From the NCBI RefSeq assembly GCF_054482595.1, contig NZ_CM137008.1: 64,000 nucleotides of DNA, one strand, 5' to 3'. Positions 42,001-45,000 of the stretch are shown here, piece by piece. A program made the position numbers. Numbering within the stretch: position 1 is the first letter of the stretch; each line of letters starts with the position of its first letter.

Positions 42001-45000
42001 CTGGCACTGCTTTTGAACTGCCGACCTTCGTCTGTGTACTGTTTGTTGGCGTGATTCTGAGCAACGGTCTGTCAATGATGGGCTTTTATCGCGTCTTTGA
42101 GCGTGCGGTATCAGTGCTGGGTAACGTAAGCCTGTCGTTGTTCCTGGCGATGGCGCTGATGGGGCTGAAACTGTGGGAGCTGGCTTCGCTGGCGCTGCCG
42201 ATGCTGGCGATTCTGGTGGTACAGACCATCTTCATGGCGTTGTATGCCATCTTCGTTACCTGGCGCATGATGGGCAAAAACTACGATGCGGCAGTGCTGG
42301 CTGCGGGTCACTGTGGTTTTGGTCTCGGTGCAACGCCAACGGCAATCGCCAACATGCAGGCGATCACTGAACGTTTTGGCCCGTCGCACATGGCCTTCCT
42401 GGTAGTGCCGATGGTCGGTGCGTTCTTTATTGATATCGTTAACGCGCTGGTGATTAAGCTGTATTTGATGTTGCCGATTTTTGCGGGTTAACCGATGAAG
42501 CGGCGGTAGAAGTGCCGCCGCAACAAAGACAAATGCCTGATACGCTTCGCTTATCAAGGCTGCGCATTGATTCGCAATTTATTGAATTTATAAGTTTTTG
42601 TAGGACGAAGCACATCCGGCAGGAAGGTAGGGTAACCTGAAATGGCGGTCTTCTCACTGCCGCCTTTTACGCATTCGAGTAACGTTCCGTCTCCGGCATC
42701 CAGCGTTCTATCAGGGCTTTTGCCTGTTGTGGGTAACGTTCGTGAATATGGCGTGCCAGGCGCTGAACTTCCGGGATCATCGCCTGATCGCGCAGTAAAT
42801 CCGCCACTTTAAATTCAGCATTACCCGTCTGACGAGTGCCTAACAATTCGCCAGGGCCGCGAATCTCCAGATCTTTTTGTGCAATCACAAACCCGTCGTT
42901 GCTGTCGCGCAGCACTTGCAGGCGAATTTGCGCCGTTTTAGAAAGCGGCGTTTTATAGAGCAGCACGCAGTGAGAAGCCACCGCGCCACGACCTACACGC
43001 CCACGTAGCTGGTGCAACTGCGCCAGACCCAGACGCTCCGGGTTTTCGATAATCATCAGACTGGCGTTAGGCACATCAACGCCGACTTCAATAACGGTTG
43101 TGGCAACCAGCAGGTGTAGCTCACCTTGTTTAAACGACGCCATCACCGCCTGTTTCTCGGCAGGTTTCATCCGCCCGTGTACCAGGCCAACATTCAACTC
43201 TGGTAGCGCCAGTTTCAACTCTTCCCAGGTAGCTTCCGCCGCCTGCGCTTCCAGCAATTCCGACTCTTCAATCAACGTACAAACCCAGTACGCCTGACGA
43301 CCTTCAGTCATGCAGGCGTGGCGCACGCGGTCAATGATGTCGGTACGGCGAGTATCAGGAATAGCGACCGTAGTCACTGGCGTGCGGCCTGGCGGCAGTT
43401 CATCAATGACCGAGGTGTCGAGATCGGCATACGCAGTCATCGCCAGCGTGCGGGGGATCGGCGTGGCGGTCATGATCAACTGATGCGGATGGAAGCCTTG
43501 CTGCTGGCCTTTCTCCCACAATGCCAGACGCTGATGCACGCCAAAACGATGCTGTTCGTCGATAATCACCAGCGCCAGACCGTTAAACTGCACCTGTTCC
43601 TGGAAGATGGCGTGCGTACCAACAATCATCTGCACCTGACCGCTGGCGATGGCTTCCTGCTGAGACAGTCGCGCTTTACCTTTCTGCTTACCGGCGAGCC
43701 AGCCCACTTCGATACCGAGCGGTGCAAACCAGTTGCGGAAGTTATTGGCGTGCTGTTCGGCGAGTAATTCGGTTGGTGCCATCAATGCCACCTGTTTGCC
43801 GTGGGCAATCGCACGCAGCGCGGCGAGGGCAGCGACCAGCGTTTTACCGGAACCTACATCGCCCTGTACCAGGCGCATCATCGGCACATTCAGCGCCATA
43901 TCGCGCTCGATCTCCGCCACCACGCGAGCCTGAGCGCCCGTTGGCTTGAACGGTAAGGCGGCAAGAAGTTTATTTTTCAGCGTGTCATTGGCGCTCAGCG
44001 GCTGGGCATGGAAACGTTGCGCTCCGGCGCGTAAGGCTAACATGCTGAGGTTATGCGCCAGCAGTTCTTCCAGAATCAGACGACGTTGCGCCGGATGCTG
44101 CCCGGTTTCCAGATCGCTAAGTTGCAGCGTCGGCGGCGGGCGGTGCAAAGTGCGCAACGCTTCCGGTAGCGTCATCATTCCTTGTGACAGTTCCGGCGGC
44201 AGGAGTTCTTCAATGGCGCAGGTGTCGAGCAGATCCAGCGCCTGGTCGGTTAATTTACGCAGCGTGGCCTGCTTTACGCCTTCGGTTGTTGGATAAACCG
44301 GCGTGAGCGTTTCCTGCAACTCTGGCGTACTGAGATCGCCCTGCACGCGGTATTCCGGGTGGATCATCTCCGCACCATATTTACCGCGCTTTGCTTCTCC
44401 ATAGGCCAGCACGCGGCGGCCCGTCGCCAGGCTATTTTTCATTGCCGCGTTGAAGTTGAAAAAGCGCATGGTGAGAATGCCGGAACCGTCGCTGATCTGG
44501 CAGGTCATCATCCGCCGACCGCCGAAGGAGATATTGCAGTTCAGCACTTCGCCTTCCACCGTGGCATAAACGCCCGGTAGTAGTTCTCCGATGGGGTAGA
44601 GATGGGTGCGATCTTCGTAGCGCAGGGGAAGGTGTAACAGTAGATCCTGCACGGTATGCAGGTTGATTTTCGCCAGTTTGTTACTAAGTGCTGCGCCAAC
44701 GCCCGTTAGGGAACTGAGTGGGACAGCATCTAACAGGCGACCTTTCATGGCACTTACCCTGCAGCCTGCATAGTAGCCCACCAGTCGGCATCAGCTTCGA
44801 TCTCGCCTTGCTGATTGACGTGGGGATAAGGCAGGCCTTTGCGTTTTGCGACTTTCGCCAGCACCGGATAGCCGCCTTCAAACAACAGGCGTTGTTGCTC
44901 TGCTTCCGGCAACATGCTGTTTTCACGCAGGTACATGCCTGCATTTTGCCGCTGACGCTGGGCTTCGTAAAGAATGAGGGCTGAGGCAACGGAAACATTC

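What the first reader, a model, noticed from the sequence alone, without database searches (positions are those of the whole stretch)
42492..42666. gltS–recG convergent spacer with hairpin and repeat-like sequence
Right after the gltS stop there is a GC hairpin (gcggcgg-tagaagt-gccgccgc) lacking a T-run. It is followed by sequence resembling, but not matching, REP consensus (…cgcttatcaaggctgcg… and …gtaggacgaagcacatccggcagg…). This may be a degenerate REP/BIME-type element acting as an mRNA stabiliser or terminator for the convergent genes.
Basis: seen in the sequence. Interest (0 to 1): 0.15.

Follow-up and report, generated by a model that had tools for sequence, protein, structure and literature searches.

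The report
Decayed BIME-1 repeat between hairpins
The gap between the E. coli genes gltS and recG holds an old, conserved RNA hairpin plus a worn-out copy of a well-known repeat (BIME-1/RIP), which about two thirds of E. coli strains no longer carry, so the finding is real but ordinary.

Summary
The window is E. coli. gltS (41286-42491, +) and recG (42667-, -) converge on a 175-bp spacer.

A strong GC hairpin without a T-run lies at 42500-42521 (-18.7 kcal/mol, z -6). The REP-like sequence after it is one decayed BIME-1 (RIB/RIP) element, 42522-42643:
- a Y REP with CTAC mutated to CTGC;
- the conserved L linker, with its IHF core intact;
- a Z REP with a 13-bp internal deletion.

A profile built from three unrelated BIME-1 copies hits it at E=1.8e-16. 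BLAST finds a median of 7 matching places per genome.

A second, weaker hairpin with TTTT (42644-42668) abuts the recG stop. It is a duplicate of the first, and a 12-bp direct repeat brackets the BIME.

The other Escherichia lineages sampened carry the same insertion with intact REPs. Citrobacter and Salmonella have only the single hairpin, with compensatory changes in its stem.

E. coli has three alleles: BIME (1872 genomes), a 33-bp single hairpin made by deletion between the repeats (about 1637), and a 288-aa orphan ORF (about 1915).

K-12 data show Rho-dependent termination regions on both strands and no called Term-seq 3' end in the spacer.

Verdict: a fossil repeat next to a conserved hairpin that probably protects RNA 3' ends. 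Low interest.

The parts
41286..42491 (+). gltS (sodium/glutamate symporter), stop TAA at 42489-42491
   Evidence: ORF. TIGR00210 gltS equivalog, 679.8 bits. RefSeq annotation of genomes identical over the queried region.
42496..42507 (.). Left copy of the 12-bp direct repeat TGAAGCGGCGGT that brackets the inserted segment; it includes the 5' arm of hairpin L
   Evidence: Alignment A2. The repeat is perfect (12/12) in strains 19KM1831 and GMF054 and 10/12 in the window. In E. albertii it extends to a 25-nt direct repeat.
42500..42521 (.). Hairpin L: GCGGCGG-TAGAAGTG-CCGCCGC, with no U-tract on either strand. It is an ancestral stem-loop and the proposed RNA 3'-end protecting structure or weak bidirectional terminator
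   Evidence: -18.7 kcal/mol (z -6.06) on +, -16.2 (z -5.0) on -. The 7-bp stem is present in Escherichia, Citrobacter and Salmonella: 99.2% of cells paired and 2 pairs with compensatory changes, while the loop and flanks vary.
42522..42533 (+). A-rich left flank of the BIME-1 (AACAAAGACAAA). On the recG-sense strand it reads as a U-rich tail (AUUUGUCUUUGUU) after the Y REP
   Evidence: Similar A-rich flanks occur in the rhlE and pfkA-sbp copies. It is covered by the nhmmer hit starting at 42526.
42534..42564 (+). Y-type REP, degenerate: TGCCTGATACGCTTCGCTTATCAAGGCTGCG. The stem has a bulge and CTAC has become CTGC
   Evidence: Alignment with canonical copies and with intact Escherichia orthologues. 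Folds at about -10 kcal/mol, no better than shuffles.
42565..42599 (+). L linker of BIME-1. The IHF core lies at 42575-42587 (CAATTTATTGAAT; reverse complement ATTCAATAAATTG matches WATCAANNNNTTR at 8 of 9 specified positions)
   Evidence: This is the best-conserved block across independent BIME-1 copies (invariant columns) and across Escherichia orthologues. A pattern search finds it once as a true hit in the window, against 0.17 expected. IHF binding itself was not tested.
42600..42621 (+). Z-type REP remnant GTAGGACGAA^GCACATCCGGCA. The GTAG is kept but 13 bp of the palindrome are deleted
   Evidence: Gap against canonical copies and against E. albertii, E. whittamii and others, which keep GGATAAGGCGTTCACGC. 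Folds at only -4.2/-5.8 kcal/mol, not significant.
42622..42643 (+). Right flank of the BIME-1 (GGAAGGTAGGGTAACCTGAAAT), shortened by 11 bp relative to E. whittamii
   Evidence: E. whittamii keeps GAGCACTTCGCCAGCAA, which matches the right flank GCGCACTTTGTCAGCAA of the pfkA-sbp copy.
42638..42649 (.). Right copy of the direct repeat (TGAAATGGCGGT in the window)
   Evidence: The 33-bp short allele (L002) equals the window spacer minus the 142 bp between the two repeat copies.
42644..42668 (.). Hairpin R: GGCGG-TCTTCTCACTG-CCGCC followed by TTTT. It overlaps the recG stop codon (42667-42669) and is a weak intrinsic-terminator-like site for gltS-sense RNA
   Evidence: -9.8 kcal/mol on +, -9.5 on -. 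It is stronger in E. albertii (-15.3) and in the short allele (-16.5/-22.1). It pairs with hairpin L in the minimum-energy fold of the whole spacer (-63.9 kcal/mol, z -3.4).
42667..44781 (-). recG (ATP-dependent DNA helicase). The longest ORF is 704 aa from a GTG; RefSeq annotates 2082 nt / 693 aa
   Evidence: NF008163 RecG, 1270.6 bits. Annotation.

Best explanation
The 175-bp spacer has two components of different age and status.

1. An ancestral GC-rich stem-loop lies just after gltS (hairpin L, 42500-42521). It was partly duplicated next to the recG stop (hairpin R, 42644-42668).

2. Between the two hairpins lies one BIME-1 (RIB/RIP) repeat. It was inserted before the Escherichia lineages sampled here diverged. 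In this E. coli lineage it is a decaying fossil: the Y REP is mutated, the Z REP has lost 13 bp, the right flank has lost 11 bp, and the GTAG/CTAC tag is lost on the Y side.

Shown by comparison: the identity, age and decay of the BIME; the conservation of the hairpin stem; the dispensability of the BIME.

Inferred mechanism:
- Neither hairpin is an efficient intrinsic terminator. L has no U-tract. R has a 5-bp stem and 4 U.
- Convergent gltS and recG transcripts therefore run through the spacer and are stopped largely by Rho in the antisense gene.
- 3'-to-5' exonucleases then trim back to the stable stem-loop, either hairpin L or the long L/R helix that encloses the BIME. This sets and protects the steady-state 3' end. 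This is the Dar and Sorek model for Rho-dependent transcripts.
- The L linker still carries a near-consensus IHF core and may still bind IHF, but nothing here indicates that this matters to the cell.
For: Identity:
- Alignment with three canonical BIME-1 copies.
- nhmmer profile of those copies hits 42526-42624 at E=1.8e-16.
- Dispersed family, median 7 places per genome.
- Weak naRNA4 (REP-derived RNA) hit in Rfam, 20.7 bits.
- Family definition in PMC3333891.

Age and decay:
- E. albertii, E. whittamii, Escherichia sp. E1V33, sp. MOD1-EC7003 and strain SCPM-O-B-8794 all carry hairpin-BIME-hairpin. All five keep an intact Z REP and four an intact Y REP; SCPM-O-B-8794 has a 17-bp deletion in Y.
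- The window's REP folds are no better than shuffles, whereas the E. albertii ones are -18.7 and -14.2 kcal/mol.

Hairpin conservation:
- Citrobacter (39-48 bp spacers) and Salmonella (35 bp) have the single GCGGCGG-N8-CCGCCGC hairpin.
- 7 pairs, 99.2% of cells paired, 2 compensatory double changes, 0 of 500 shuffles reach that.

Dispensability of the BIME:
- Of 5424 matching genomes among 5426 complete E. coli genomes, 1872 have the BIME allele.
- 1915 have two separate places, which is the ORF allele. This agrees with 1912-1918 genomes found with the ORF as query.
- About 1637 have the 33-bp allele, which equals a deletion between the 12-bp repeats and carries the E. coli-specific CCGCCGCC state.

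Termination:
- Adams et al. 2021 (PMC7815308) supplement 2 lists Rho termination regions at K-12 3827414 (+, recG sense, Rho score 3.05) and at 3826980 (-, gltS sense, inside antisense recG, 4.36).
- Their curated Term-seq list has no 3' end in 3827292-3827459.
- Dar and Sorek 2018 (PMC6061677) show that Rho-dependent transcripts end just after stable stem-loops that lack U-tracts and that resist PNPase and RNase II.
Against: - No 3' end at the base of hairpin L has been shown. The one Term-seq table I could read calls none in the spacer, possibly because both genes are weakly expressed.
- The Rho scores use 800-nt windows, so their positions are approximate.
- The ORF allele has no hairpin at all, so the hairpin is not indispensable to gltS or recG.
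- The compensatory evidence is only two events in 18 sequences.
- The IHF core is conserved, but the compared Escherichia species are close, so this could be shared ancestry rather than selection.
- All transcript data are from K-12, whose allele is 90% identical to the window's (168 vs 175 bp).
Confidence: 0.75

Rival explanations
1. The BIME itself is the functional unit. Its REP stem-loops stabilise the upstream mRNAs or attenuate transcription. In particular, the Y REP on the recG-sense strand, followed by AUUUGUCUUUGUU, would act as a terminator for the spoT-trmH-recG operon.
For: - REPs are documented mRNA stabilisers, and BIMEs can attenuate transcription in a Rho-dependent way (cited in PMC3333891, and PMC6061677).
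- The recG-sense Rho region in K-12 peaks at 3827414, which maps onto the Y REP.
- U-rich tails follow the Y REP in other BIME-1 copies.
- The whole spacer folds better than shuffles (z -3.4).
Against: - The Y REP of the window folds at about -10 kcal/mol, z +0.34. The Z remnant is not significant.
- Independent internal deletions have accumulated: 13 bp, then 7-10 bp in K-12-type alleles, and 17 bp in the Y REP of strain SCPM-O-B-8794.
- The BIME is absent from about 65% of complete E. coli genomes.
- No Term-seq 3' end is called there.
- The Rho-score position has a resolution of hundreds of nucleotides.
Confidence: 0.15
2. The element is kept as an IHF-binding architectural site, or as a topological barrier between two convergent transcription units. 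The REPs are irrelevant and the L linker is the functional core.
For: - The IHF core (reverse complement ATTCAATAAATTG) is the best-conserved block in independent copies and in all Escherichia orthologues, while both REPs decay.
- BIME-1 L linkers frequently carry an IHF site (PMC3333891, citing Boccard and Prentki 1993).
- The position between convergent genes is where positive supercoils build up. This last point rests on general knowledge and was not tested.
Against: - Two thirds of E. coli genomes lack the site at this locus.
- Binding was not tested, and no ChIP table could be read.
- Divergence among Escherichia species is too small to tell constraint from recent ancestry.
Confidence: 0.08
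3. The spacer encodes a small RNA or small protein of its own.
For: Mechanical ORFs of 42 aa (42512-42640, +) and 67 aa (42454-42657, -) exist. Many REP-containing regions are transcribed.
Against: - No promoter-like site in the spacer.
- No Rfam family above its gathering score.
- The ORFs cross indels that differ between alleles.
- The region is deleted or replaced in most strains.
Confidence: 0.02

Closest known systems
BIME-1, also called RIB (Boccard and Prentki 1993) or RIP (Oppenheim et al. 1993), of E. coli
   Same: One Y REP and one Z-type REP in inverted orientation, separated by the long conserved L linker with an IHF core. It is single-copy, extragenic and at the 3' ends of transcription units. 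It aligns over its full length with the copies at mdoH-yceK, downstream of rhlE, and pfkA-sbp.
   Different: It is decayed. The Z REP palindrome is broken by a 13-bp deletion, the Y REP has a bulge and has lost CTAC, and the right flank is shortened. The REP hairpins no longer fold better than shuffled sequence. It is also bracketed by a duplicated host hairpin and a 12-bp direct repeat.
[quoted passage not shown]
   Same: Hairpin L is a stable GC stem-loop just after a stop codon with no U-rich tail. Rho-dependent termination regions lie downstream on both strands in K-12.
   Different: No mapped 3' end at this hairpin is available. It sits between convergent genes and could serve both strands.
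Bidirectional intrinsic terminators between convergent genes (Ju et al. 2019; paper not readable here, cited from memory and through PMC7815308)
   Same: A single palindromic GC hairpin is shared by two convergent genes in the 33-bp allele and in Citrobacter and Salmonella. TTTTA follows it on the gltS-sense side.
   Different: The U-tracts are short or absent (4 U on one side, UUCAUCGGUU on the other). In the window the hairpin is split into two copies 142 bp apart.
BIME presence/absence polymorphism in E. coli intergenic regions (Bachellier et al. 1997, Genetics 145:551; cited in PMC3333891, not readable here)
   Same: The locus differs among strains by presence, absence and internal deletion of a BIME.
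   Different: There is a third allele in which a 288-aa orphan ORF fills the spacer, and S. enterica shares this polymorphism.

Membership tests
BIME-1 (RIB/RIP) | Two REPs (one Y, one Z-type) in inverted orientation | tested here: met
   Y at 42534-42564 and Z at 42600-42621 align with the Y and Z REPs of three canonical copies and of intact Escherichia orthologues. Both are degenerate.
BIME-1 (RIB/RIP) | Long, well-conserved L linker between the REPs | tested here: met
   42565-42599 holds the invariant block AAT.TATTGA.T.T of alignment A1. Profile hit at E=1.8e-16.
BIME-1 (RIB/RIP) | IHF binding to the linker | not testable with these tools
   Sequence only: the reverse complement of 42575-42587, ATTCAATAAATTG, matches WATCAANNNNTTR at 8 of 9 specified positions. 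No ChIP table could be read.
BIME-1 (RIB/RIP) | Occurs as a single unit, not in tandem arrays | tested here: met
   There is one unit in the spacer. The only other profile hits in the window are a lone Z REP at 8940-8978 and sub-threshold noise.
BIME-1 (RIB/RIP) | Member of a dispersed multi-copy family in the same genome | tested here: met
   blastn finds a median of 7 and up to 19 places per E. coli genome, and 7 in strain XH990, whose gltS-recG region (561 bp) is 100% identical to the window.
REP (palindromic unit) as a substrate of the TnpA_REP (RAYT) transposase | Stable imperfect palindrome tagged by GTAG/CTAC | tested here: not met
   The Y REP has CTGC in place of CTAC. The Z REP keeps GTAG but its palindrome is broken. 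Folds are about -10 and -4 to -6 kcal/mol, no better than shuffles. The copy is a fossil, not an active REP.
Canonical intrinsic (Rho-independent) terminator | GC-rich stem-loop followed at once by a 7-8 nt U-rich tract | tested here: not met
   Hairpin L has no U-tract on either strand. Hairpin R has a 5-bp stem and 4 U. The scan calls no terminator in the spacer.
Protective 3' stem-loop of Rho-dependent transcripts | Stable stem-loop without U-tract, steady-state 3' end at its base, Rho-dependent read-through downstream | tested here: inconclusive
   Structure met. Rho regions on both strands in K-12 met. A 3' end at the hairpin is not documented: there is none in the Adams et al. Term-seq list.

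The most novel reading that the evidence does not exclude
The duplicated host hairpin and the 12-bp direct repeat (TGAAGCGGCGGT) around the BIME-1, together with the natural 33-bp allele that looks like a clean excision, could be a footprint of how BIME-1 units move. In this reading, insertion at GC terminator hairpins duplicates the target, and removal is reversible and restores a working hairpin. The mdoH-yceK copy is also flanked by a 9-bp direct repeat. If general, this would be a mobility signature unlike that expected for an IS200/IS605-type Y1 transposase, which to my knowledge makes no target duplication.
Probability: 0.08. Interest if true: 0.45.

Novelty: already known. Interest (0 to 1): 0.12.

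Why it matters
It matters little beyond annotation. BIME-1/RIP elements and GC hairpins between convergent genes are long-known features of E. coli.

The useful points are practical:
- The conserved element here is the hairpin, not the repeat.
- The repeat is a decaying fossil that can be deleted cleanly between 12-bp repeats.
- The gltS-recG spacer is a three-allele polymorphism in E. coli (BIME, single hairpin, orphan ORF). This offers natural isogenic-like material to test whether BIME-1 copies do anything for neighbouring genes.

Tried and rejected
- Rfam at a permissive threshold: nothing reaches a gathering score. The only related hit is naRNA4, a REP-derived RNA, at 20.7 bits against 59.5.
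- Promoter and terminator scan: no site in the spacer.
- Exact or near-exact REP consensus patterns in the window: no match to the Y consensus within 3 mismatches, and none to GCCGGATAAGGCG within 1. This copy can only be found by alignment or profile.
- K-12 RefSeq annotation: no repeat feature at the locus. The same record shows none at the canonical pfkA-sbp BIME-1 either, so the absence says nothing.
- Literature tables. The supplements of Dar and Sorek 2018, Prieto 2012, Conway 2014 and Ton-Hoang 2012 are not held as text. The SMRT-Cappable-seq and RepRanger supplements do not mention gltS or recG. Boccard and Prentki 1993, Bachellier 1997 and Ju 2019 are not held.
- Small ORFs in the spacer: rejected, because they cross allele-specific indels and there is no promoter.
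- The idea that the short allele is the ancestral empty site: rejected. All five non-K-12-type Escherichia lineages sampled carry the BIME. The short allele also shares the E. coli-specific CCGCCGCC state of hairpin R.
- The 288-aa ORF of the third allele: no match in Pfam, NCBIfam, PADLOC or PHROGs.
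Full report
**What is there.** The window is Escherichia coli. A 561-bp stretch around the spacer is 100% identical to strain XH990 and several other strains. gltS (41286-42491, +; TIGR00210, 679.8 bits) and recG (42667 onward, -; NF008163, 1270.6 bits) converge on a 175-bp spacer, 42492-42666.

Eight bases after the gltS stop lies GCGGCGG-TAGAAGTG-CCGCCGC (42500-42521). As RNA it folds at -18.7 kcal/mol on the + strand (z -6.06) and -16.2 on the - strand. No U-tract follows on either strand. The simple terminator scan calls nothing in the spacer.

**The REP-like sequence is a decayed BIME-1.** blastn of the spacer against 5426 complete E. coli genomes finds a median of 7 and up to 19 places per genome. 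The extra places match query positions 28-116 at 75-82% identity. They lie downstream of mdoH, rhlE, pfkA and other genes.

Aligned with three of those copies, window 42534-42621 resolves into three parts:
- a Y REP, TGCCTGATACGCTTCGCTTATCAAGGCTGCG;
- the long L linker, with the invariant block CAATTTATTGAAT;
- a Z-type REP, GTAGGACGAA^GCACATCCGGCA, lacking 13 internal bases.

An nhmmer profile built only from those three independent copies hits 42526-42624 at 55.2 bits, E=1.8e-16. This is the top hit in the 64 kb. The layout matches the definition of BIME-1 in Ton-Hoang et al. 2012: a y REP and a z REP inverted, a single copy, and a long conserved L linker that often carries an IHF site (PMC3333891).

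The reverse complement of 42575-42587 is ATTCAATAAATTG. It matches the IHF consensus WATCAANNNNTTR at 8 of 9 specified positions. The consensus is from my own knowledge, and binding was not tested.

**A second hairpin and a direct repeat.** Next to the recG stop lies GGCGG-N11-CCGCC followed by TTTT (42644-42668; -9.8 kcal/mol). Its 5' side repeats the 5' side of the first hairpin: TGAAGCGGCGGT at 42496-42507 against TGAAATGGCGGT at 42638-42649. The repeat is a perfect 12/12 in strains 19KM1831 and GMF054. In E. albertii it extends to 25 nt.

In the minimum-energy fold of the whole gltS-sense spacer, the two hairpin regions pair with each other and Y pairs with Z (-63.9 kcal/mol, z -3.4).

**Comparative history.** A scan of species-representative genomes with GltS returned 80 loci.
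- Citrobacter (39-48 bp) and Salmonella enterica subsp. arizonae and diarizonae (35 bp) have one hairpin, GCGGCGG-N8-CCGCCGC, between gltS and recG.
- In Enterobacter, Buttiauxella, Cedecea and others where recG lies downstream, the two genes abut or overlap.
- Across 18 distinct hairpin sequences, the 7-bp stem is paired in 99.2% of cells. There are two compensatory double changes: A-U in S. diarizonae and U-A in C. amalonaticus. The loop and flanks vary freely.
- All five other Escherichia lineages carry hairpin, BIME-1, hairpin: E. albertii, E. whittamii, sp. E1V33, sp. MOD1-EC7003 and strain SCPM-O-B-8794. All five keep an intact Z REP. SCPM-O-B-8794 has a 17-bp deletion in its Y REP. E. 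whittamii also keeps the canonical right flank.

The insertion therefore predates the split of these Escherichia lineages from E. coli, and the window's copy is a decayed descendant. The E. albertii Z and Y REPs fold at -18.7 (z -3.9) and -14.2 kcal/mol. The window's fold at -4 to -6 and about -10, no better than shuffled sequence. K-12-type alleles (168 and 165 bp) have lost a further 7-10 bp.

**Polymorphism within E. coli.** There are three alleles.
- Of 5424 genomes with a match, 1872 have the BIME allele. About 195 of these are within 5% of the window's form.
- 1915 genomes have the two flanks as separate places. An 867-bp ORF of 288 aa fills the gap and overlaps the recG 3' end by 16 nt. 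This agrees with 1912-1918 genomes found with the ORF as query.
- The remaining 1637 or so have a 33-bp spacer, CCGATGAAGCGGCGGTCTTCTCACCGCCGCCTT. This count is by subtraction. It is consistent with 12 of 40 evenly spread rows.

The 33-bp allele equals the BIME allele minus the 142 bp between the 12-bp repeats. It carries the E. coli-specific CCGCCGCC state of hairpin R, where most other Escherichia have CCGCCGTC. I therefore read it as a secondary deletion, not an ancestral empty site. Either way, about two thirds of E. coli genomes lack the BIME at this locus.

**Transcript evidence (K-12, same allele type).** Adams et al. 2021 (PMC7815308) list no curated Term-seq 3' end in the spacer or for gltS or recG; that file is held uncut.

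Their bicyclomycin DirectRNA-seq table lists two Rho termination regions:
- 3827414 on the recG-sense strand, with upstream/downstream reads of 66/28 untreated and 342/442 treated, Rho score 3.05;
- 3826980 on the gltS-sense strand, about 310 nt inside antisense recG, with reads of 83/22 and 58/67, score 4.36.

These scores use 800-nt windows, so the positions are approximate.

Dar and Sorek 2018 showed that Rho-dependent transcripts end at steady state just after stable stem-loops without U-tracts. These stem-loops resist PNPase and RNase II, and the real termination occurs downstream (PMC6061677). Hairpin L fits that description.

**Interpretation.** The identity, age, decay and dispensability of the BIME-1 are shown. 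So is the conservation of the hairpin stem.

The following is inferred. The hairpins act as 3'-end protecting structures and at best weak bidirectional terminators, and Rho completes termination in the antisense gene. The BIME portion is a passive fossil that may still bind IHF.

The proposed role of the REPs as stabiliser or terminator is not supported for this copy.

**Comparison with known systems and novelty.** The element belongs to BIME-1/RIB/RIP by architecture and sequence. It fails the test for an active REP, which needs a stable palindrome tagged by GTAG/CTAC. Neither hairpin is a canonical intrinsic terminator.

Nothing here lies outside known kinds. Whether the K-12 copy is already catalogued in GenBank or EcoCyc could not be checked, because the RefSeq feature table available here lists no REP feature even at the canonical pfkA-sbp copy.

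The only mildly unusual point is the duplicated hairpin with a 12-bp direct repeat around the BIME, and the apparently clean loss. I rate a mechanistic meaning for this as unlikely (about 0.08).

**Verdict.** Real, correctly spotted, ordinary. Interest 0.12.

Noticed in passing
Not in the window. L003 4195-5061 (BL21), L004 3146-4012, L093 3501-4352 (S. enterica), L094 3501-4349 (Superficieibacter electus): In about 35% of complete E. coli genomes (BL21, O157:H7, O26, O111 and others), a 288-aa ORF replaces the whole gltS-recG spacer. It starts 2 nt after the gltS stop and overlaps the recG 3' end by 16 nt. It has no Pfam, NCBIfam, PADLOC or PHROG match. Homologues at 64-71% identity occur in S. 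enterica, in exactly the same slot, and in Superficieibacter, also convergent with recG. E. coli and Salmonella therefore share the presence/absence polymorphism. The function is unknown.
   Followed up: partly
window 8903-8978: A second degenerate BIME remnant lies between convergent ORFs (8421-8900 + and 9016-9339 -). It has a Y-REP 3' half (CGCTTCGTCTTATCAGCCTAC), a short linker and a Z REP (GGATAAGGCGTTCACGCCGCGTCCGG). The BIME-1 profile hits the Z part at E=2.5e-5.
   Followed up: partly
window 42336-42485 (last full 150-nt window of gltS) and the recG 3' part, 42817-42966: Divergence is mosaic next to the spacer. The last full 150-nt window of gltS is only 92.7-93.3% identical to K-12 and BL21, while the preceding 150 nt are 99.3% identical. 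It is 98% identical to the short-allele strain HR12-1. One recG window drops to 88.7-89.3% against BL21 and HR12-1. This suggests old allelic lineages or recombination breakpoints flanking the polymorphic spacer.
   Followed up: no
L005 403-411 and 530-538 (mdoH-yceK BIME-1 in strain VTB96929v): This independent BIME-1 copy is also bracketed by a perfect 9-bp direct repeat (CAATAAAAA, spacing 127). A bidirectional terminator-like hairpin, AAAAATACCGGC/GCCGGTATTTTT, follows it. The rhlE and pfkA-sbp copies show no such repeat. This may be chance.
   Followed up: no
window 54208-54225: GCCAGTTTATTGAATTTG resembles the BIME-1 L-linker core (3 mismatches). The profile hit there is not significant (E=0.6). 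It is probably a chance match inside other sequence.
   Followed up: no
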